Source: Bacteroidales bacterium (lineage in GTDB: Bacteria; Bacteroidota; Bacteroidia; Bacteroidales; UBA932). Taken from it: a stretch of 64,000 bases of DNA. This document shows, in pieces, positions 33,099-39,546 of the stretch (its first letter is position 1; each line of letters starts with the position of its first letter). Location of the stretch: the NCBI GenBank assembly GCA_018434395.1, contig JAHDPK010000025.1, forward strand, positions 8,374 through 72,373, read 5' to 3'. The position numbers were made by a program, and so were the translations under genes. Under the pieces are notes generated by a model. That model was given only the letters and a program-made list of their open reading frames with translations. It was not told the origin of the DNA and made no database searches.

Positions 33099-33779
33099 CT
33101 ACCAGCCGAGTTTGCTAATTTTGTATAGCATCTCTTTGTTTAGTATCTGAACATTTTTCCCCGAAATTTTAATAATCTCCTCTTTCGCAAAATCACTTAA
33201 AACTCTACTGATACTTTCTCTTGACGAATCTACCAAATTTCCAAAATCCTCCTGATTAATTTGTATGGTAAAGCTATCTGAATGATACAGGCTGTCTGCA
33301 AAATCTATCAAAATATCGGCCACTTTGCCTCTAACCTGTTTTTGTGTTCGGCTTGCACATCTTTGGTAAGAATCTATCTCACCCTTACACAACTCCACTA
33401 TTATCTGGCTGCTAAAATCATGATTTTCTGCTAACATTTTTCTAAAAAAAGATATATCAATAAAGCATACTTCTGAATTTTCGACAGCTGTCACCGAATA
33501 CTGGTTGATCTTATCTCCAAAAGTGGTCGGTAAACCAAGATAATTGGAAGATTTAACAATTTTTACTGTATGTTCGTGATATGGACCATTAATATGTATT
33601 TTTACTAATCCACTTTTGAGGTAAGCAACATTTGTGGAATATGTACCTTGCCTGATGATCGTGTCTCCCCTTTTGAAGCTAACATTAAGCGAGTTATGTG
33701 ACAACTCGTTTAATTCATCTTCTGAAAGCTTACTCTCAGCCATAGATCTATAATTACAAAACTGACATTTATTTTCCAT
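33099..33779 (-). CDS. Crp/Fnr family transcriptional regulator
   Basis: cNMP-binding-like beta-roll followed by a C-terminal HTH (SRESISRVLSDFAKEEII). The ATG at complement 33777-33779 (MENKCQFC) is preferred over the track start. Confidence 0.85.
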   Translation of the reverse strand: MENKCQFCNYRSMAESKLSEDELNELSHNSLNVSFKRGDTIIRQGTYSTNVAYLKSGLVKIHINGPYHEHTVKIVKSSNYLGLPTTFGDKINQYSVTAVENSEVCFIDISFFRKMLAENHDFSSQIIVELCKGEIDSYQRCASRTQKQVRGKVADILIDFADSLYHSDSFTIQINQEDFGNLVDSSRESISRVLSDFAKEEIIKISGKNVQILNKEMLYKISKLGW

Positions 33780-33812
33780 AAGAAAATTATTTACGTTGCA
33801 AATATAAGAAAT

Positions 33813-33827
33813 TGTGATATACATCAC
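33813..33827. promoter_or_regulatory. CRP/FNR-type palindromic box in the divergent promoter region
   Basis: TGTGATATACATCAC = GTGAT-N4-ATCAC. It matches TGTGA-N6-TCACA at 9 of 10 positions and TTGAT-N4-ATCAA at 8 of 10. Located 34 nt upstream of the regulator ATG and 80 nt upstream of the dsrE-like ATG. Confidence 0.4.
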
Positions 33828-33906
33828 TATTTTATAGGATAAGAATCATGTCCTTTAGAAAAAATATCTTGCGTAAAATATTTTATTTTGCAAAAAAATA
33901 GAGATT

Positions 33907-34473
33907 ATGGAAGAAAATAATCAAGTCACAATTGAACTGTTACAACAGCAAATTGACAAATTGCAGAAAAAGGTTCAAAAAATGGAAAATGGAAGAAAAG
34001 ACCAACTTTCCATAGCTTGCGTATCTGGAGACTTGGATAAGATACTGGCAACAATGATTATATCAATCGCTGCTGCAGCAATGGATACAAAAGTTAAAAT
34101 TTTCTTTTCTTTCTGGTCACTCTCTGCTCTGCGCGACCCTAAAAAGCATCCCAAGGGAAAAGATTTTATTTCTAAGATGTTTGGTTTCATGCTTCCTAAA
34201 GGCAGAAACAAACTCAAACTTTCGAAGTTGAATATGTGCGGAATGGGACCAGTTATGATCAAAAAACTGATGCACAAGAACAACGTTCTCTCTCTTGACG
34301 AGATGTTTAAAACGGCCGGTGAACTTGGAATTGAGTTTATTGTATGTGAAATGTCAATGGGACTTATGGGATTTAAGAAAGAAGAAATCATTGACTATCC
34401 TCATTTGACTTTTGCCGGTGCAACCACATTTGTGGCAGATGCCTGCGAAAGTGCCGCTCAACTATTTGTTTAA
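33907..34473 (+). CDS. DsrE/DsrF/DrsH-like sulfur-relay family protein with N-terminal coiled coil
   Basis: 188 aa. QLSIACVSGDLDKILATMIISIAAAAMD ... EFIVCEMSM pattern of DsrE-like (COG2210-type) proteins. Confidence 0.7.
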   Translation: MEENNQVTIELLQQQIDKLQKKVQKMENGRKDQLSIACVSGDLDKILATMIISIAAAAMDTKVKIFFSFWSLSALRDPKKHPKGKDFISKMFGFMLPKGRNKLKLSKLNMCGMGPVMIKKLMHKNNVLSLDEMFKTAGELGIEFIVCEMSMGLMGFKKEEIIDYPHLTFAGATTFVADACESAAQLFV

Positions 34474-34508
34474 TAACCAATTAAATAATACTAATAATAA
34501 TTACTCTT

Positions 34509-34763
34509 ATGACACAAGAAGAACTTAAAGCATTGAACATAGCGAAAAGTGTTGATGCAAGAGGTACTGCCTGCCCAGGCCCGTTACTTGAAGCAAAAAA
34601 GGCTATTGGTACCATCGAAAATGGAGATGTAATGGAAATCCTTTCAGCCGATGAAGGGACTAAAATAGACATACCAAAATGGTGTGCAAAACAAGGACAT
34701 GAATACCTTGGAACAATTGAAGAAAACGGGTACTATAAAATTTACATGCGCAAGAACGAATAA
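34509..34763 (+). CDS. tusA: TusA/SirA-family sulfurtransferase
   Basis: 84 aa. DARGTACPGPLLEAKKAI contains the conserved CPxP active-site motif. Confidence 0.85.
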   Translation: MTQEELKALNIAKSVDARGTACPGPLLEAKKAIGTIENGDVMEILSADEGTKIDIPKWCAKQGHEYLGTIEENGYYKIYMRKNE

Positions 34764-34775
34764 TTTATATGAGTG

Positions 34776-35171
34776 ATGGCTAATCAAGCTAAAATACTCG
34801 TCTTCTCAACCGAAAAAATATCAGATCCTGCCATTGATATGGCAGGACTGTTGAAATTGCACTATCCTCCTCAGGTATATGCTATTGCGCTGCCTTGTTC
34901 ATCAAGTGTAAAGCCAAAATGGATATTAAGGGCTCTTGAAAAAGGATTTGATGGTGTTTTTATTGCTGCTGACGGCAGTGACTGTACCTATGGTGAAAGT
35001 TGTACTGAAAAAACCGGAAACTTAGTAAGTAAAACGCATGAAATCATGAAAGAGAAGGGTATAGACCCTGCAAGATTGAAAATGGCAGCCATGTGTTCTG
35101 TTTGCAGTGAATCTTTTGTAAAGCAAATAAAAAGTTTCAATGAGTATCTGTTAAAAACTGGAAATAAATAA
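34776..35171 (+). CDS. MvhD/FlpD-like (methyl-viologen-reducing hydrogenase delta subunit family) protein
   Basis: YPPQVYAIALPCSSSV...ILRALEKGFDGVFIAADGSDCTY matches the FlpD family core. ATG at 34776. Confidence 0.75.
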   Translation: MANQAKILVFSTEKISDPAIDMAGLLKLHYPPQVYAIALPCSSSVKPKWILRALEKGFDGVFIAADGSDCTYGESCTEKTGNLVSKTHEIMKEKGIDPARLKMAAMCSVCSESFVKQIKSFNEYLLKTGNK

Positions 35172-35175
35172 AATA

Positions 35176-36474
35176 ATGCAAACAAGAAATAAACTCCAAT
35201 TTGATGCTCTTGTAATTGGTGGAGGAATTGCAGGAGGGGAAACTGCACTCAATCTGGCGAATAACGGTTACAAAGTTGCAATCATTGAAAAGGAGCTTTC
35301 CATAGGAGGAAAAATGATACTTCTTAGTAAAGTTTTCCCTACTCTTGACTGCTCTGCTTGTATTACTACTCCAAAAGTATCGGAAATTTCAAGGCACCCC
35401 AACATTACAATATTTACAGAAAGCGATGTCGAAACCATTGAAAAAAACTCAGAATATGATTTTACCACACTGGTAAGCCGCCGACCGAGATACGTAATAG
35501 CCGAAGATTGTACAGGCTGTCAGTTGTGTGAAAAATCCTGCCCTGTCATCGTAAAAGATGAATATCAATTTAACCTTATAGGAAGGAAGGCGGTTTTTAT
35601 ACCATTCAGCATTGCAAATCCTAAAGTTGCTGCTGTTGACATGGAAAATTGCATATTGTGTGGCGCATGCGAGAAAATTTGCCCTTCAAACTGCATAGAT
35701 TTCACACAAGAGGAGAGACAGTACGAAATTAACTCAAAAACAGTAATTATTGCCACAGGATTCAATCTGGCTGATCCAGAAAAGATGGATAGATATGGTA
35801 AAGGCCATTTCAGAAATGTTCTAACATCAATGCAAATGGAGAGACAGCTCGCCCCGACTAGACCTTATAATACAATTCTGAGACCGGGCGATGGGAAAGT
35901 TCCTGATAAAATTGCATATGTGCTCTGTGCAGGCTCAAGGGACGATTCTGCAGGCAATCCTATTTGTTCTCAAATATGTTGCATGTACTCCATCAAGCAG
36001 GCTCAACTTCTTATGGGAGCACTACCAATGGCAGATGTAACCCTATATTATATAGACATAAGAGCTTTTGGAAAAGGATATGATGAATTTTACGAACAAG
36101 CAAGAGGTATGGGAGTAAAGTTTGTCAAGGGAAAAATAGGCAAAATATCTGAATTGCCCAATGGTAATCTGATACTTCGATATGAAGATATACAAAGTGG
36201 AAAAATTAAAGAAACAGAACATGATATGGTTGTTCTATCTGTAGGAACACTTGCTAACAAAGAAACCCCCTCGCTATTCAAAAACATAGCGCCAAAAGTT
36301 GATGATCAAAGTTTCATCCTGCAAGATGACCCTATACTAAGTCCAGCCAAAACTACGGTTAAGGGAGTCTTTGTTGCCGGAACAGCATCCGGGCCAAAAG
36401 ACATTCCAGATTCAATACTGTCAGCAGGCTCTGCAGCAGCTGAGGTTATTTCCTATATTAATCAAAAACAGTGA
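35176..36474 (+). CDS. HdrA/QmoA-like FAD- and Fe-S-containing oxidoreductase
   Basis: VIGGGIAGG dinucleotide fold, two ferredoxin motifs (CTGCQLCEKSCP, CILCGACEKICP) and the HdrA-type CAGSRD...CSQICC. Confidence 0.8.
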   Translation: MQTRNKLQFDALVIGGGIAGGETALNLANNGYKVAIIEKELSIGGKMILLSKVFPTLDCSACITTPKVSEISRHPNITIFTESDVETIEKNSEYDFTTLVSRRPRYVIAEDCTGCQLCEKSCPVIVKDEYQFNLIGRKAVFIPFSIANPKVAAVDMENCILCGACEKICPSNCIDFTQEERQYEINSKTVIIATGFNLADPEKMDRYGKGHFRNVLTSMQMERQLAPTRPYNTILRPGDGKVPDKIAYVLCAGSRDDSAGNPICSQICCMYSIKQAQLLMGALPMADVTLYYIDIRAFGKGYDEFYEQARGMGVKFVKGKIGKISELPNGNLILRYEDIQSGKIKETEHDMVVLSVGTLANKETPSLFKNIAPKVDDQSFILQDDPILSPAKTTVKGVFVAGTASGPKDIPDSILSAGSAAAEVISYINQKQ

Positions 36475-38207
36475 TGACAGACAAAAAACTTGGAGTATAT
36501 ATTTGTGCATGCGGAGGCAATATCTCTGACTATGTGGATATTGAGAAAGTTAAAGAGGCCATTAAAGAAGAAGATTGTGTTTTTTTAGCCAAAACAACAA
36601 TGTTCGCATGTGGTGACTCAAATCAGAAAGAGATGGAGTCAGACATCAAGGAAAATAATCTCAGCGGTATTGTTGTTGCGTCCTGCTCACCTAAACTTCA
36701 CCTCAACACATTCCGTGCAGTAAGCGAAAGAGCCGGACTAAACAAATATAATTATGTTCATGCCAACATTCGTGAACAAGCCTCCTGGGCTCACTCCGAC
36801 GACAAGATCGGCGCAACAGAAAAAGCAATACATATTGTTAAGGCTGCAATAGCTAAGGCAAGATATGCGCAATCACTTTTCCCAATAAAGATTGAATCTG
36901 AAAAATCCGTGGCAGTAATAGGTGCAGGAGTTTCAGGTCTTAAAGCATCTCTTGCACTTTCCAAAATGGGAGACAAGGTATATCTCATTGAGAGGGAGGA
37001 TAAAGTTGGAGGTAAACTTACAACATTGGGCAAAATTTTCCCCTCCGACATTCAAGGAAGTGATTTTGTAAGAAGACTCGAAGAAGAAGTTAAAAAGGAA
37101 AATAATATTACTCTTATTACCAACGCCAAAATAGAAAAATGCACAGGAAATATTGGTCATTTTCAAATTGTTGTAGCCACTAACAAAGATGAGAACAGAA
37201 ATGAAAATAAGCATGAAGAGATTAATGTAGGCTCTATTCTGGTTGCTACGGGATTTGAATCCTACAGTCCACAAGAAGGTGAATTTGGTTACAAAAATGT
37301 GAATAATGTAATTACCCTTCCTGAATTTAGAAACTTACTTAGAGAAAACAACGGCCATAAAAATTTATTATACAACAACTCCAAAGTAAATAGTATTGCA
37401 TTTATATATTGCGTAGGAAGTCGTCAGATTCGAGGCGAAAACAAATACTGTTCAAGATATTGTTGCTCAGCAGCCATGAATACCTCACTAGAATTGAAAG
37501 ACAAATATTCCGACGTTCAGATTTATCATTTTACAAAGGGAGTAAGAACATATGGAGCACAAGAACTTATGTATGCTGAAGCATGCAGAAAAGGTGATAT
37601 TTTTATTCAATATCCAGATAAGGAGGAGCCTGTTGTTAATAAAGATGGCGACCATGTAATGGTCAGAGCCAAAGATATATTAACTTCTAAAAGAGAAATT
37701 GAAGTTCTTGCTGATCTTGTGGTTTTAATCACTGGTATGGTTCCCGACAGCGATAAATCATTGGGGTCGATGTTAAAACTGCCAAGAGGAAGAGACAATT
37801 TCTTCAACGAAATACATGTAAAGCTTCGCCCAGTTGAAACTGTAATTGACGGGATAACAATTGCCGGAACATGCCAAGGACCAAAAGGCGTAACGGAATC
37901 TGTCAACTCGGCTCTTTCTGCGGCTGTTAAATCTCACTCATTTGTAAGTAAAGGAGAGCTGGAACTTCCACCAATTGTAGCTCATGTAGATACAACTACA
38001 TGCAGCTGGTGTGATGCATGCAGTAACGCATGTCCGTTTAATGCAGTAATTATGACTACCGTAAATAATAAAAGAGTAGCTGATATCAATTCAACAACCT
38101 GCAAGGGATGTGGCATGTGCCTGCCAGTATGCCCTTCAGATTCTATAGAACTAACATCATTTACAAATAAGGAAATTGAAAGTATGATTGATATTCTAGC
38201 AAGTTAA
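36474..38207 (+). CDS. HdrA/QmoB-like FAD- and Fe-S-containing oxidoreductase
   Basis: N-terminal YICACGGNIS, VIGAGVSGL, CVGSRQ...CSRYCC and C-terminal CSWCDACSNACP / CKGCGMCLPVCP. The ATG overlaps the upstream TGA (TGATG). Confidence 0.8.
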   Translation: MTDKKLGVYICACGGNISDYVDIEKVKEAIKEEDCVFLAKTTMFACGDSNQKEMESDIKENNLSGIVVASCSPKLHLNTFRAVSERAGLNKYNYVHANIREQASWAHSDDKIGATEKAIHIVKAAIAKARYAQSLFPIKIESEKSVAVIGAGVSGLKASLALSKMGDKVYLIEREDKVGGKLTTLGKIFPSDIQGSDFVRRLEEEVKKENNITLITNAKIEKCTGNIGHFQIVVATNKDENRNENKHEEINVGSILVATGFESYSPQEGEFGYKNVNNVITLPEFRNLLRENNGHKNLLYNNSKVNSIAFIYCVGSRQIRGENKYCSRYCCSAAMNTSLELKDKYSDVQIYHFTKGVRTYGAQELMYAEACRKGDIFIQYPDKEEPVVNKDGDHVMVRAKDILTSKREIEVLADLVVLITGMVPDSDKSLGSMLKLPRGRDNFFNEIHVKLRPVETVIDGITIAGTCQGPKGVTESVNSALSAAVKSHSFVSKGELELPPIVAHVDTTTCSWCDACSNACPFNAVIMTTVNNKRVADINSTTCKGCGMCLPVCPSDSIELTSFTNKEIESMIDILAS

Positions 38208-38209
38208 AG

Positions 38210-38491
38210 ATGGATAACATTAAAAAACAGACAGTAAAAATACGGAGAGAGAACTTTGGAGTATCAGACGAATCAATGAAAAATTACAAAGAGTTCAACC
38301 GTATCAAAAAAATGATTCTTGAGGCATTGAGTAAAGAAGATCTCACAATTGCCTCACTCAGCGAAAAAACAGGTTTTCCAAAGGACAAGATTTTATTTTA
38401 TCTTTTGTCATTAGTTAAATTTGGATTGGTTGAGACAGGTGATATTGATGAAATGGACGAATACTATAAATATAAATTGAAGAAACAATGA
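38210..38491 (+). CDS. small winged-helix-like protein embedded in the Qmo-like operon
   Basis: 93 aa. ILEALSKEDLTIASLSEKTGFPKDKILFYLLSLVKFGLVE resembles a wHTH. Junctions are +2 nt and -4 nt with its neighbours. Confidence 0.4.
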   Translation: MDNIKKQTVKIRRENFGVSDESMKNYKEFNRIKKMILEALSKEDLTIASLSEKTGFPKDKILFYLLSLVKFGLVETGDIDEMDEYYKYKLKKQ

Positions 38492-39546
38492 CCAGAATAG
38501 ATCCTGAGTTCGGTAAAAGACTTAAAAAGTATGGAGCATTTGACTATGATGCATGCTATAACTGTGGAACATGTACTTCTGTCTGTTCTCTCGCTAAAAA
38601 AGACGAAGAGTTTCCAAGGGAGATGGTCAGACTTAGTGCAATTGGAGCAAAAAAAGAGATTCAATCTTCACTTAAACCATGGTTGTGCTACTATTGCGGA
38701 GAATGCTCTACAAACTGTCCAAGAAGTGCCAACCCAGGAGAATTGATGATGTCCTTACGGAGGTGGTTAATTGCAAGTTATGACTGGACAGGGATTTCGG
38801 GATTGTTATTCAGATCATTAACGGCAACTGTCGTTGCTCTAACTATTGTGGCAGTTGCGGTAATAGTATTTGCCATTACGATGGGATTTGACACTTTAAC
38901 AATTATGAGATATGGCCATTATTTTGAAATTGGAGCTGTTACAGGTGTTTTTGCTTTTATTTTGCTTCCCAATTTAATGAGGATGTGGTATTTCACAATA
39001 ATTCGACCTGGTTACAAAATATCTATAAGAAATTATGCCATGTCTCTTAAAGAGCTTTTTATACATATGTTCACCCAAAAAAGATCCCTTGGTTGTGATA
39101 ATAACCAAAAGAGATGGTTTGAACATTTTATTCTGGTAATTGGATATCTCACACTGCTTTTTACAACCGTTTTCCTGGATTGGTTCGGAACAGAAAGCAC
39201 TGCAATAATAATCACAGGCTATGTGGTAAGTGCAATAATCTTCATAGTGACAGCAGATTTTGTATCAGGAAGGATTAAGAAAAACAAGGAGATAAGTAAA
39301 CACTCGAGACCTTCAGACTGGCTATTTGTTATTTGGCTGTGTCTAATGGGACTTACTGCCTTTATTGTCAGAGGTGCAATAGATTTGGGAATTCTTGAAC
39401 AAAATCTGTGGATCTACCTGATTCATCTGACAGTACTTGCTCAGTGGGCTCTTATCATTGTTCCATTTGGAAAATGGACACATTTTATTTACAGGTCTTT
39501 TGCGCTCTATTTTGCAAAATTGATTTATAACACTCAAACCAAATAA
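38488..39546 (+). CDS. QmoC-like subunit: HdrC-type 2x[4Fe-4S] domain fused to a ~6-TM HdrE/NarI-like membrane domain
   Basis: CYNCGTCTSVCS and CYYCGECSTNCP, followed by six hydrophobic helices with conserved-looking His residues (YGHYFE, FEHFIL, LIHLTV, WTHFIY). Confidence 0.7.
   Translation: MTRIDPEFGKRLKKYGAFDYDACYNCGTCTSVCSLAKKDEEFPREMVRLSAIGAKKEIQSSLKPWLCYYCGECSTNCPRSANPGELMMSLRRWLIASYDWTGISGLLFRSLTATVVALTIVAVAVIVFAITMGFDTLTIMRYGHYFEIGAVTGVFAFILLPNLMRMWYFTIIRPGYKISIRNYAMSLKELFIHMFTQKRSLGCDNNQKRWFEHFILVIGYLTLLFTTVFLDWFGTESTAIIITGYVVSAIIFIVTADFVSGRIKKNKEISKHSRPSDWLFVIWLCLMGLTAFIVRGAIDLGILEQNLWIYLIHLTVLAQWALIIVPFGKWTHFIYRSFALYFAKLIYNTQTK

What the first reader, a model, noticed from the sequence alone, without database searches (positions are those of the whole stretch)
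33907..39546. Qmo-like (MvhD + two HdrA-like + QmoC-like) membrane complex coupled to TusA and DsrE, with no APS reductase or dsr genes
Seen: seven co-directional genes have junctions of 35, 12, 4, -1, 2 and -4 nt. They encode a DsrE-like protein (FIVCEMS), a TusA-like protein (CPGP), an MvhD/FlpD-like protein, a 432-aa HdrA-like protein (FAD fold, 2 ferredoxin motifs, CAGSRD…CSQICC), a 577-aa HdrA-like protein (YICACGGNIS, CVGSRQ…CSRYCC, 2 ferredoxin motifs), a 93-aa wHTH-like protein, and a protein with 2 [4Fe-4S] motifs plus about 6 TM helices bearing His residues. Known: QmoABC (two HdrA-like subunits, an MvhD-like domain on QmoB, and QmoC = HdrC-like + HdrE-like cytochrome b) links the menaquinone pool to APS reductase in sulfate reducers and some green sulfur bacteria. 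TusA and DsrE-type proteins carry persulfide sulfur in Dsr and sulfur-oxidising Hdr-like pathways. Here MvhD is a separate gene placed first, and no apr, sat or dsr gene is nearby. The MvhD-like protein also seems to lack the N-terminal Cys motif I recall for the family (…FSTEKISD… where C-x-x-C is expected) and has an extra C-terminal CSVC. Inference: a quinone-linked oxidoreductase acting on a TusA/DsrE-bound persulfide or a disulfide, whose physiological partner is undefined.
Basis: partly seen in the sequence, partly recalled or inferred. Interest (0 to 1): 0.6.

Follow-up and report, generated by a model that had tools for sequence, protein, structure and literature searches.

The report
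Sulfur-carrier-linked Qmo-like membrane redox operon
A fermentative Bacteroidales bacterium carries a tightly conserved, uncharacterised operon that joins two small sulfur-carrier proteins to a membrane-anchored flavin/iron-sulfur/haem complex related to Qmo and heterodisulfide reductase. It probably lets such anaerobes pass electrons between the quinone pool, ferredoxin and protein-bound sulfur.

Summary
Seven co-directional, mostly overlapping genes at 33907-39546 encode a DsrE2B-like protein, TusA, an MvhD-like protein, two HdrA-like flavoproteins, a small winged-helix protein and a QmoC-like Fe-S/cytochrome-b protein.

It does not serve APS reductase. The genome (94.6% complete) has no hit for aprA, ATP sulfurylase, sulfite reductase or molybdopterin reductases. 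Across 301 sampled Bacteroidales species, 35 of the 42 with the operon show no aprA hit, and those with aprA also have a separate canonical aprBA-qmoABC.

- A divergent Fnr-like regulator faces the operon, with a TGTGA-N6-TCACA box in 48 of 48 loci.
- The MvhD-like subunit has an invariant, class-specific cysteine set. It loses the N-terminal CxxC and gains CSVC, and this set travels with TusA/DsrE.
- The winged-helix protein is fused to the second HdrA-like protein in a sister variant, so it is probably a subunit.
- Sister operons in the same order put a [NiFe] hydrogenase or AprBA where TusA/DsrE sit here.

Best reading: a menaquinone- and ferredoxin-linked HdrA-type complex acting on carrier-bound sulfane sulfur. 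The direction is unproven.

I found no paper describing it. This scan has already flagged the same operon at least 12 times on other genomes.

The parts
33099..33827 (-). Divergent Crp/Fnr-family regulator. The true start is probably Met17, near 33779.
   Evidence: cNMP_binding plus HTH_Crp_2, with weak CRP/FnrL/Fnr hits. Across 58 orthologues the N-terminal C-x2-C and a central Cys are invariant (58/58), and two more Cys are kept in 57/58 and 52/58. This is an Fnr-like pattern. The gene is present upstream in 61 of 80 loci.
33813..33828 (.). Crp/Fnr-type operator TGTGATATACATCACT, lying between the regulator gene and dsrE2
   Evidence: TGTGA-N6-TCACA with at most 1 mismatch occurs in 48 of 48 regulator-dsrE2 intergenic regions, against a background of 0.085 per kb in the same loci. 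Sequence read.
33907..34473 (+). DsrE-family sulfur carrier, DsrE2B-like and apparently soluble
   Evidence: PF13686, 2.4e-44. It fails the DsrE2 equivalog cut-off (56.7 vs 210 bits). Nearest solved structures are 3PNX (2e-26) and DsrE2B 2QS7 (4e-11). Only Cys147 (FIVCEMS) is invariant, 62/62.
34509..34763 (+). TusA sulfur carrier
   Evidence: PF01206, 1.3e-23. Cys22 of CPGP is invariant (72/72) and a second Cys59 is kept in 69/72.
34773..35171 (+). MvhD-like connector subunit with an altered cysteine set (MvhD*)
   Evidence: PF02662, 1.9e-30, and E 2e-12 to MvhD of 5ODC. In 71 of 71 operons of this type the N-terminal CxxC positions carry no Cys (Thr and Ile in 69, gaps in 2). Cys71, 77, 108 and 111 (CSVC) are invariant and Cys42 is kept in 70 of 71. 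Hydrogenase-linked paralogues keep the canonical CNWC...MCSGR...CGCHPGDCHY pattern.
35176..36474 (+). HdrA-like flavoprotein 1 (QmoA position): FAD domain plus an inserted 2x[4Fe-4S] ferredoxin domain
   Evidence: HdrA2 1e-141, aligned to profile positions 136-561. Solved HdrA 1.4e-109. 14 invariant Cys, including two CxxCxxCxxxC motifs and the HdrA C...CxxxCC cluster motif.
36471..38207 (+). HdrA-like flavoprotein 2 (QmoB position): N-terminal Cys domain, FAD domain and C-terminal ferredoxin domain, with no fused MvhD
   Evidence: HdrA2 2.6e-143. Solved HdrA 2.2e-110, in two stretches that skip the inserted ferredoxin domain. 17 conserved Cys (16 invariant, one in 39 of 40), 15 of them also present in every comparison paralogue and the other two missing only from the canonical apr-linked QmoB.
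38210..38491 (+). Small winged-helix protein, probably a subunit of the complex
   Evidence: Its start overlaps or abuts both neighbouring genes. It has no Cys. The model is confident (pLDDT 85.7) and shows a generic ArsR/SmtB-like wHTH. A profile of it matches the C-terminal 70-80 residues of the long QmoB in 9 variant loci (E 1e-20 to 4e-25) and none of 75 control QmoB sequences.
38488..39546 (+). QmoC-like membrane anchor: HdrC-like 2x[4Fe-4S] domain plus a six-helix cytochrome-b-like domain
   Evidence: qmoC NF038018 over its full length, 141 bits, below the 300-bit cut-off. The HdrC-like N-terminus matches solved HdrC. 8 cluster Cys, Cys203 and His213/332 are invariant in every class; His313 is invariant here and in all but one comparison sequence. 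His144/193 are invariant within this class.

Best explanation
The operon encodes a membrane-bound complex of the HdrA/Qmo type, induced under anoxic or reducing conditions by a divergent Fnr-like regulator.

Proposed wiring:
- The QmoC-like subunit (two [4Fe-4S] clusters plus haem b) connects to menaquinone.
- The two HdrA-like proteins form a heterodimer that mimics the HdrA dimer, with a bifurcating or confurcating FAD.
- The inserted ferredoxin domain of the first one is the low-potential branch, to ferredoxin.
- The modified MvhD sits where MvhD normally links a substrate module to HdrA. The substrate module here is sulfane sulfur held as a persulfide on TusA Cys22 and DsrE Cys147.

I commit to the reductive direction. 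Menaquinol and reduced ferredoxin together (average potential near -260 mV) reduce carrier-bound persulfide or polysulfide sulfur to H2S. This gives a fermenter an extra electron sink that menaquinol alone could not drive. The new CxxC of MvhD* is the likely persulfide-reactive site, standing in for the missing HdrB.

Shown: gene content, conservation, cofactor motifs, independence from Apr and Dsr, the regulator box, and the modular swap with hydrogenase or AprBA.

Inferred: the partner, quinone use, the ferredoxin branch, the direction, and the role of the CxxC.
For: 1. The eight-gene unit (regulator, DsrE, TusA, MvhD*, two HdrA-like genes, wHTH, QmoC-like) is kept in order in up to 72 of 80 species loci. 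The shortfalls are mostly at contig ends. Orthologues occur in 42 of 301 sampled Bacteroidales species. Nothing outside the unit recurs in more than 15 of 80 loci.
2. Sister operons in the same order place a different partner next to the same chassis. One has canonical MvhD plus [NiFe] hydrogenase small and large subunits, in 4 of 4 loci. The other is aprB-aprA with a canonical qmoABC.
3. In solved Hdr complexes MvhD is a connector between a donor module and HdrA (PMC12350162).
4. The altered MvhD cysteine set is invariant in 71 of 71 cases (Cys42 in 70) and occurs only where TusA/DsrE are present. No class-specific Cys appears in the HdrA-like proteins.
5. In the variant with a longer first flavoprotein, a GltD/NfnB-type NAD(P)H module is inserted inside the ferredoxin insert. 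This marks that insert as the soluble-carrier branch.
6. A quinone pool is plausible. The genome has two MqnA/D genes, an MqnP-like prenyltransferase, an Nqr or Rnf pair and a fumarate-reductase-type flavoprotein.
7. For the reductive direction: the Fnr-like regulator with a conserved box, and no hit for any enzyme able to oxidise sulfur beyond S(0) (no Dsr, Apr, Sat or molybdoenzymes).
8. Precedent: TusA and DsrE3 proteins deliver sulfur to an Hdr-like complex in sulfur oxidisers (PMC11094781).
Against: - No catalytic module for S-S chemistry is encoded. There is no HdrB/CCG domain in the operon, and the proposed role of the MvhD* CxxC is conjecture.
- In all known complexes MvhD carries electrons from a donor into HdrA, and the hydrogenase-linked sister is a donor-type system. 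By analogy this favours oxidation.
- TusA and DsrE proteins are best known from sulfur oxidisers.
- A later check of an earlier report on this operon in another genome judged the surrounding gene kit oxidiser-like.
- No sulfur uptake gene (YeeE/YedE) was found here, so the source of sulfane sulfur is open.
- Quinone and haem binding are inferred from motifs only.
- The energetics are from textbook midpoint potentials, not measurements.
Confidence: 0.37

Rival explanations
1. Oxidative direction. Sulfide is oxidised to carrier-bound sulfane sulfur (TusA/DsrE persulfide). The electron pair enters through MvhD* and is bifurcated by the HdrA-type FAD to menaquinone (then on to fumarate reductase) and to ferredoxin. 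This yields low-potential reductant from sulfide, or makes persulfide for biosynthesis in sulfidic habitats.
For: MvhD's known role is donor-to-HdrA connector. The closest paralogous operon is H2-donor-linked. The S(0)/HS- couple (about -270 mV, textbook value) lies midway between ferredoxin and menaquinone. Fumarate reductase is present as a menaquinol sink. TusA/DsrE-fed Hdr-like systems are oxidative in known cases. A Cloacimonadota Hdr-TusA-rhodanese cluster was read as oxidative (PMC8542988).
Against: No enzyme to take sulfur beyond S(0) was found, so persulfide would need another outlet. HdrB and LbpA, which define oxidative sHdr, are not encoded in the operon. An Fnr-type regulator is more typical of reductases, though this is a weak argument.
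Confidence: 0.25
2. TusA and DsrE are not substrate carriers but a protein dithiol/disulfide (or trisulfide) redox couple, analogous to DsrC. The complex reduces a TusA-DsrE (or TusA Cys22-Cys59) disulfide made by an unidentified enzyme.
For: HdrA systems reduce heterodisulfides. TusA has a second, nearly invariant Cys (69/72). A DsrC-DsrMK system of the same logic exists in this genome.
Against: No enzyme that would form such a disulfide is linked to the operon. DsrE has only one invariant Cys. There is no HdrB-type disulfide-reducing site.
Confidence: 0.08
3. The complex is a ferredoxin (or NAD(P)H):menaquinone oxidoreductase. TusA/DsrE are accessory factors, for Fe-S or cofactor sulfur supply or for regulation, rather than redox partners.
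For: The chassis alone (two HdrA-like proteins plus the QmoC-like anchor) could link ferredoxin to quinone. The variant has a built-in NAD(P)H module. No catalytic sulfur site is recognisable.
Against: The strict, order-wide linkage of TusA, DsrE and the specially modified MvhD to this chassis needs another explanation, as does their replacement by hydrogenase or AprBA in the sister operons. Rnf and Nqr already cover ferredoxin/NADH to quinone.
Confidence: 0.1
4. An ordinary QmoABC that serves an APS reductase encoded elsewhere.
For: The overall Qmo-like architecture, and a full-length match to the qmoC model.
Against: aprA and ATP sulfurylase were not found in the 94.6%-complete genome. 35 of 42 operon-bearing species show no aprA hit. 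The 7 that have aprA are also among the genomes with a second, distant (26-31% identical) QmoC-type gene. In the four where both hits sit on one contig it lies within about 5 kb of aprA, and the one locus examined is aprB-aprA-qmoA-qmoB-qmoC. The qmoC score is below the cut-off.
Confidence: 0.02

Closest known systems
QmoABC (canonical, type I) of sulfate reducers and green sulfur bacteria
   Same: Two HdrA-like flavoproteins plus a subunit that fuses an HdrC-like 2x[4Fe-4S] domain to a cytochrome-b membrane domain, with an MvhD-type module present.
   Different: - MvhD is a separate first gene with a different cysteine set.
- An extra winged-helix subunit is present.
- The partner genes are TusA/DsrE, not aprBA.
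- QmoC scores 141 against a 300-bit cut-off.
- The HdrA-like proteins score higher against methanogen HdrA (about 370 bits, phmmer) than against the canonical QmoA/B of a Bacteroidales genome that has both systems (209-213 bits, 29-32% identity, tblastn). The two scores come from different programs, so the comparison is rough.
'Type II' Qmo (Ammonifex degensii, Vulcanisaeta moutnovskia; Neukirchen et al. 2023, PMC10504309)
   Same: That paper describes it as HdrA-like rather than bacterial-Qmo-like, and as occurring in organisms with or without Dsr/Apr, with unknown function.
   Different: I could not place these sequences in that tree, because no reference sequences were available here. The paper does not mention TusA/DsrE linkage, the modified MvhD or the winged-helix subunit.
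HdrABC-MvhAGD, Fdh-Hdr and Elp-Hdr of methanogens
   Same: The HdrA fold and cluster motifs. MvhD acts as a connector between a donor module and HdrA. The inserted ferredoxin domain is the low-potential exit.
   Different: There is no HdrB, so no non-cubane clusters and no heterodisulfide site. The HdrC-like domain is fused to a membrane cytochrome b. HdrA is split into two unequal paralogues.
sHdr-LbpA sulfur-oxidising system with TusA/DsrE3 carriers (Tanabe et al. 2024, PMC11094781)
   Same: TusA and DsrE-family proteins encoded next to, and feeding, an Hdr-like complex.
   Different: sHdr has HdrB1B2C1C2 and lipoate-binding LbpA, and it is cytoplasmic. None of these is encoded here. The DsrE protein here is DsrE2B-like, not DsrE3.
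Hydrogenase-linked Qmo-like operon of Bacteroidales
   Same: The closest paralogue found here: QmoC 35-53% identical, the same HdrA pair, and a Crp/Fnr regulator next to the two loci where neighbours were annotated.
   Different: The gene order is QmoA-QmoC-QmoB-MvhD. MvhD has canonical cysteines and is followed by [NiFe] hydrogenase subunits. There is no TusA, DsrE or wHTH.

Membership tests
QmoABC (canonical) | QmoC: HdrC-like 2x[4Fe-4S] domain fused to a haem-b membrane domain, scoring above the NCBIfam equivalog cut-off | tested here: not met
   The architecture is present (8 Cys, six helices, conserved His). However, NF038018 scores 141 bits against a cut-off of 300.
QmoABC (canonical) | QmoB carries a C-terminal MvhD-like domain | tested here: not met
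   QmoB ends after its ferredoxin domain. MvhD is a separate gene three genes upstream. The canonical Bacteroidales QmoB (703 aa) has the fusion.
QmoABC (canonical) | Genomic and functional association with aprBA and sat | tested here: not met
   No aprA or ATP sulfurylase was found in the genome. aprA was found in only 7 of 42 operon-bearing species, and those also carry a second, distant QmoC-type gene, which lies within about 5 kb of aprA wherever both sit on one contig.
QmoABC (canonical) | Two HdrA-like FAD subunits | tested here: met
   Both hit HdrA2 at 1e-141 and 2.6e-143, and solved HdrA at about 1e-109.
HdrABC heterodisulfide reductase | HdrB with CCG domains (non-cubane [4Fe-4S] clusters) | tested here: not met
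   No PF02754 hit appears in any of the seven proteins. The only CCG protein seen is DsrK-like, on another contig.
sHdr-LbpA sulfur oxidation system | HdrB1/B2, HdrC1/C2 and LbpA encoded with HdrA | tested here: not met
   None is in the operon or among the recurrent neighbours. LbpA elsewhere in the genome was not searched.
MvhD/FlpD [2Fe-2S] connector | Pfam FlpD fold | tested here: met
   PF02662, 105.8 bits over profile positions 1-121 of 123. It aligns to MvhD of 5ODC.
MvhD/FlpD [2Fe-2S] connector | Canonical cysteine set (N-terminal CxxC, MCSGR, GCHxGDCHY) | tested here: not met
   The N-terminal Cys positions are Thr/Ile and the first Cys of the GCH motif is missing. Only Cys42 and Cys71 are retained at those canonical motif positions (Cys77 is also shared with the hydrogenase-linked MvhD). 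Cys108 and Cys111 are new, with the same pattern in all 71 sequences. Whether a cluster is still bound cannot be told from sequence.
DsrE2 sulfur carrier (NCBIfam equivalog) | Score above the equivalog cut-off | tested here: not met
   NF047629 scores 56.7 bits against a cut-off of 210. It is a member of the wider PF13686 family (151 bits) and closest to soluble DsrE2B-type structures.
TusA | Pfam TusA fold with the CPxP active-site cysteine | tested here: met
   PF01206, 83 bits. Cys22 in CPGP is invariant, 72/72.
Fnr-type [4Fe-4S] regulators | Crp/Fnr fold with an N-terminal Cys cluster plus a central Cys, and a TGTGA/TTGAT-N-type palindrome | tested here: inconclusive
   The fold is met. 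There is an N-terminal CxxC (not the E. coli Cx3Cx2C...C pattern) plus 2-3 further conserved Cys. The box is found in 48 of 48 loci. Cluster binding is not testable here.

The most novel reading that the evidence does not exclude
This is a new kind of flavin-based electron-bifurcating enzyme: a sulfide/persulfide:menaquinone + ferredoxin oxidoreductase. The remodelled MvhD (new CxxC next to a rebuilt Fe-S site) is itself the persulfide-reactive catalytic subunit. It takes over the job that HdrB, hydrogenase or APS reductase does in related complexes. TusA and DsrE2B act as obligatory protein-bound substrates, and a winged-helix domain acts as their docking subunit. It would give 'fermentative' Bacteroidales a hidden, energy-conserving sulfur respiration.
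Probability: 0.15. Interest if true: 0.85.

Novelty: new variant of a known kind. Interest (0 to 1): 0.6.

Why it matters
Anaerobic Bacteroidales are among the most abundant fermenters in sediments, digesters, fens and lakes, and they are usually left out of sulfur-cycle budgets. The operon occurs in about one in seven sampled Bacteroidales species, and thousands of metagenomic copies are currently mislabelled 'F420-non-reducing hydrogenase subunit'.

If it links menaquinone and ferredoxin to protein-bound sulfur, it would:
- add a cryptic route of zero-valent sulfur turnover
- extend the Hdr/Qmo bifurcation family to a new kind of substrate
- offer a natural experiment on how the MvhD connector is re-engineered for different partners (H2, formate, F420H2, APS reductase, and now sulfur carriers)

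The regulator box, the cysteine signature and the fused winged-helix domain give direct experimental handles.

Tried and rejected
- **Complex prediction.** MvhD* with TusA, both as 31-row alignments, gave 'no answer' (score 0.00, mark 0.32). It carries no weight either way.
- **DsrC as the obligate partner: rejected.** The close DsrC orthologue is found in only 7 of 42 operon-bearing species, and 23 of 42 have no DsrC-family hit at E<=1e-10.
- **AprBA as a remote partner: rejected**.
- **The winged-helix protein as a persulfide-sensing ArsR/SqrR-type repressor or a DsrD-like activator.** It has no Cys, no DsrD Pfam hit, and only generic ArsR/SmtB fold matches at TM about 0.57.
- **Class-specific cysteines in the HdrA-like proteins as a catalytic site.** None were found.
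- **A conserved extra neighbour (rhodanese, YeeE, SQR, HdrB).** Nothing recurs in more than 15 of 80 loci.
- **Using the genome's quinone enzymes to fix the direction: uninformative.** Both an Nqr/Rnf pair and a fumarate-reductase-type flavoprotein are present.
- **Distribution outside Bacteroidales.** A 301-genome phylum sample found orthologues only in Bacteroidales. Earlier notes claim other phyla, but I did not test that.
- **Literature.** Five full-text searches found no description of the operon.
- **Phylogeny against reference QmoA, QmoB and HdrA.** Not done, because no reference sequences could be obtained. Only score comparisons are given.

Full report
**What is there.** On the + strand at 33907-39546 there are seven ORFs with junctions of 35, 9 or 12, 4, -4 or -1, 2 and -4 nt. 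Pfam and NCBIfam assign them as follows:
- a DsrE-family protein (PF13686, 2.4e-44)
- TusA (1.3e-23)
- an MvhD/FlpD protein (1.9e-30)
- two HdrA-type flavoproteins (HdrA2 model, 1e-141 and 2.6e-143)
- a 93-aa protein with weak winged-helix hits
- a protein that matches the qmoC model over its whole length but below the cut-off (141 vs 300 bits)

Against solved structures, both large proteins match methanogen HdrA at about 1e-109 to 1e-110.
- The first large protein covers the FAD domain with the inserted 2x[4Fe-4S] ferredoxin domain.
- The second covers the N-terminal Cys domain, an FAD domain without the insert, and the C-terminal ferredoxin domain.
- Together with the separate MvhD they look like one HdrA2-type protein duplicated and divided.

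The last protein has eight Cys for two clusters and six hydrophobic helices. Five His are invariant within this class. His213 and His332 are invariant in every related class examined, and His313 in all but one comparison sequence.

**Surroundings and host.**
- The flanks are housekeeping genes: grpE, dnaJ, anmK and rplS on one side, and a P-type ATPase, a MarR regulator and an aldolase on the other.
- The window lies in a 2.1-Mb, 65-contig assembly that is 94.6% complete. Earlier notes on the same window call it a Bacteroidales bacterium, and all close relatives are Bacteroidales.
- No hit was found for aprA, ATP sulfurylase, NIR_SIR sulfite reductases, molybdopterin oxidoreductases (Psr/Phs/Ttr) or YeeE/YedE transporters.
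- MenA was not found. Two MqnA/D-family genes and an MqnP-like prenyltransferase are present, so menaquinone is probably made by the futalosine route.
- Two RnfD/NqrB-family genes and a 650-aa fumarate-reductase-type flavoprotein are also present. A working quinone pool, with both a reducing and an oxidising enzyme, is therefore plausible.

**Conservation.**
- A back-translated scan of species genomes found 291 loci encoding a relative of the QmoC-like protein. The best 80 (63-80% identity) are all Bacteroidales/Bacteroidota records, including the complete genome CP006772.
- In those loci the order DsrE-TusA-MvhD-HdrA-HdrA-wHTH-QmoC is kept. Counts are 62-72 of 80 for each gene, with the shortfalls at contig ends or from a longer QmoB subtype. 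A divergent Crp/Fnr gene lies upstream in 61.
- In an even sample of 301 Bacteroidales species, 42 carry an orthologue of at least 56% identity. In a 301-genome phylum sample only Bacteroidales did.
- A profile of the MvhD-like protein finds more than 7,000 metagenomic proteins. Where a source names them, the name is usually 'F420-non-reducing hydrogenase iron-sulfur subunit'.
- Nothing outside the eight-gene unit recurs in more than 15 of 80 loci. The recurrent neighbours are DUF134, ATP synthase, Fur, peroxiredoxin, a metallo-beta-lactamase and a CGGC protein. The unit is self-contained.

**Not an ordinary Qmo.** Three paralogous arrangements exist in the same order.
1. *aprB-aprA-qmoA-qmoB(with fused MvhD)-qmoC.* Its QmoC is only 24-30% identical to this one. 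It sits in a genome that also has the present operon.
2. *Hydrogenase-linked.* The order is QmoA-QmoC-QmoB-MvhD followed by [NiFe] hydrogenase small and large subunits, in 4 of 4 loci; a Crp/Fnr regulator precedes it in the two loci where neighbours were annotated.
3. *NAD(P)H variant.* A variant of the present type has a GltD/NfnB-like NAD(P)H module inserted inside the ferredoxin insert of the first flavoprotein, and its second flavoprotein is about 735 aa.

aprA occurs in 17 of 301 sampled species, but in only 7 of the 42 with this operon. All 17 also carry a distant (25-31% identical) QmoC-type gene; in the nine where both hits fall on one contig it lies within about 5 kb of aprA.

**What distinguishes this class.**
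- In 71 of 71 MvhD-like proteins from TusA/DsrE-linked operons, the canonical N-terminal CxxC positions carry no Cys (Thr and Ile in 69, gaps in 2), and one Cys of the GCHxGDCHY motif is lost.
- Cys71, 77, 108 and 111 are invariant and Cys42 is kept in 70 of 71, with 108 and 111 forming a new CSVC.
- The hydrogenase-linked paralogues keep CNWC...MCSGR...CGCHPGDCHY, and read SASEG where this class reads CSVC.
- No class-specific Cys exists in either HdrA-like protein.
- TusA Cys22 and DsrE Cys147 are invariant. TusA also has a second, nearly invariant Cys59.
- The DsrE protein fails the DsrE2 equivalog cut-off and is nearest to soluble DsrE2B-type structures.
- So the features that travel with the sulfur carriers are the rebuilt MvhD and the winged-helix protein.

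**The winged-helix protein.**
- It has no Cys, which argues against a persulfide-sensing ArsR/SqrR-type switch.
- A confident model (pLDDT 85.7) resembles generic ArsR/SmtB winged helices only weakly.
- A profile of the stand-alone proteins matches the last 70-80 residues of the long QmoB in 9 loci (eight of the NAD(P)H-variant build and one 701-aa form), at E 1e-20 to 4e-25. It matches none of 75 shorter QmoB controls.
- A gene fusion with its neighbour, plus translational coupling on both sides, makes it most likely a subunit or domain of the complex. A PutA-like double role in DNA binding is not excluded.

**Regulation.**
- The divergent regulator has cNMP-binding and Crp-type HTH domains.
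- Across 58 orthologues it has an invariant N-terminal C-x2-C, an invariant central Cys and two further conserved Cys. This is an Fnr-like arrangement.
- A TGTGA-N6-TCACA palindrome with at most one mismatch is present in 48 of 48 regulator-dsrE intergenic regions, against 0.085 per kb in the same loci. In the window it lies at 33813-33828.
- It overlaps the listed GTG start of the regulator, so the true start is probably Met17.
- This points to redox or oxygen control, but the signal is not shown.

**A possible local partner that is not general.** Contig C39 carries four adjacent genes:
- a true dsrC, with a C-x10-C-V tail
- a DsrM/HmcE-like membrane protein
- a DsrK/TmcB-like CCG protein
- a cysteine desulfurase

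The same four-gene cluster occurs in another Bacteroidales genome. However, this DsrC orthologue is present in only 7 of the 42 operon-bearing species, and 23 of 42 have no DsrC-family hit. It cannot be the obligatory partner.

**Mechanism.**
- In solved complexes MvhD (or ElpC) is the connector between a substrate-oxidising module (hydrogenase, formate dehydrogenase, ElpAB) and the bifurcating FAD of HdrA (PMC12350162).
- The Bacteroidales paralogues follow the same logic, with hydrogenase or AprBA as the module. In this class the module is TusA plus DsrE.
- The chassis offers three ports:
  1. MvhD*
  2. the QmoC-like anchor, to menaquinone
  3. the ferredoxin insert, which in the variant is extended by an NAD(P)H module
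- Textbook potentials place S(0)/HS- (about -270 mV) midway between menaquinone (about -75 mV) and ferredoxin (about -450 mV). Either direction is thermodynamically reasonable.
  - Reductive: menaquinol and ferredoxin confurcate onto persulfide.
  - Oxidative: sulfide-derived electrons bifurcate to both acceptors.
- I favour reduction (0.37) over oxidation (0.25). The reasons are the Fnr-type control, the fermentative host and the lack of any enzyme to process sulfur beyond S(0). The donor-type role of MvhD and the oxidative precedents (PMC11094781, PMC8542988) argue the other way.
- There is no HdrB. I suggest the new CxxC of MvhD* as the persulfide-reactive site, but this is conjecture.

**Comparison with the literature and with this scan.**
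- Neukirchen et al. 2023 (PMC10504309) describe 'type II' Qmo proteins. These are closer to HdrA and occur with or without Dsr/Apr, with unknown role. This operon probably falls there, but I could not test its placement.
- That paper and the others searched do not describe the TusA/DsrE linkage, the modified MvhD, the winged-helix subunit or the regulator.
- The scan's own index shows at least 12 earlier reports of the same operon in other genomes, with the same general reading. One was later marked down for over-reaching on a sulfur-uptake story.
- I re-tested three of their claims and agree with them: operon conservation, the altered MvhD cysteines and the NAD(P)H variant.
- I add the operator, the Fnr-like cysteines, the fusion evidence for the winged-helix subunit, the hydrogenase-linked sister class, and the negative co-occurrence with DsrC and AprA.

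**Verdict.** This is a real, ordinary-looking but uncharacterised operon. It is a new variant of the Hdr/Qmo kind with a well-defined, testable hypothesis.

Noticed in passing
G000 contig C39, L003:9252-12672 (outside the window): dsrC (genuine C-x10-C-V tail), a DsrM/HmcE-like membrane protein, a DsrK/TmcB-like CCG protein and a cysteine desulfurase sit in one cluster, in a genome with no DsrAB or other NIR_SIR enzyme. The same four genes are adjacent in another Bacteroidales genome (L089). The DsrC orthologue is in 37 of 301 sampled species. This may be a DsrAB-independent DsrC/DsrMK system fed by cysteine sulfur.
   Followed up: partly
L084:7007-15790; also L085, L088, L091: Bacteroidales operon with the order QmoA-QmoC-QmoB-canonical MvhD-[NiFe] hydrogenase small and large subunits (a Crp/Fnr regulator precedes it in L084 and L091; the other two were not checked). 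It looks like an H2-linked, quinone-anchored HdrA complex. I did not look for a description of it.
   Followed up: partly
L087:9520-16901 (genome G106) and 16 other sampled genomes: Canonical aprB-aprA-qmoA-qmoB-qmoC occurs in 17 of 301 sampled Bacteroidales species. Whether these genomes have sat or dsrAB was not checked.
   Followed up: no
window 33777-33827: The listed GTG start of the Crp/Fnr gene overlaps its own predicted operator (33813-33828). The conserved protein begins at Met17 (MENKCQFC...), so the real start is probably near 33779.
   Followed up: partly
window 39485-39546: The QmoC-like gene and the convergent P-type ATPase ORF overlap by 62 nt as listed. This leaves no room for a terminator, so the ATPase stop or the QmoC tail may be mis-set. 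QmoC orthologues align only to residue about 345 of 352.
   Followed up: no
L091:4467-6172: In one hydrogenase-linked locus the QmoB-like gene is called as two pieces (216 + 358 aa). This could be an in-frame selenocysteine codon, as in some HdrA proteins, or a frameshift.
   Followed up: no
L025, L035, L039, L041, L042 and about 30 other loci: About half of the operons of this class have a 642-aa QmoB instead of the 578-aa form seen here. The extra segment was not characterised.
   Followed up: no
L014:11049-11855 and 6 other loci: A metallo-beta-lactamase-fold protein (268 aa) follows the QmoC-like gene by 14 nt in a minority of loci. The fold is shared with persulfide dioxygenases, but no specific assignment was made.
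   Followed up: no
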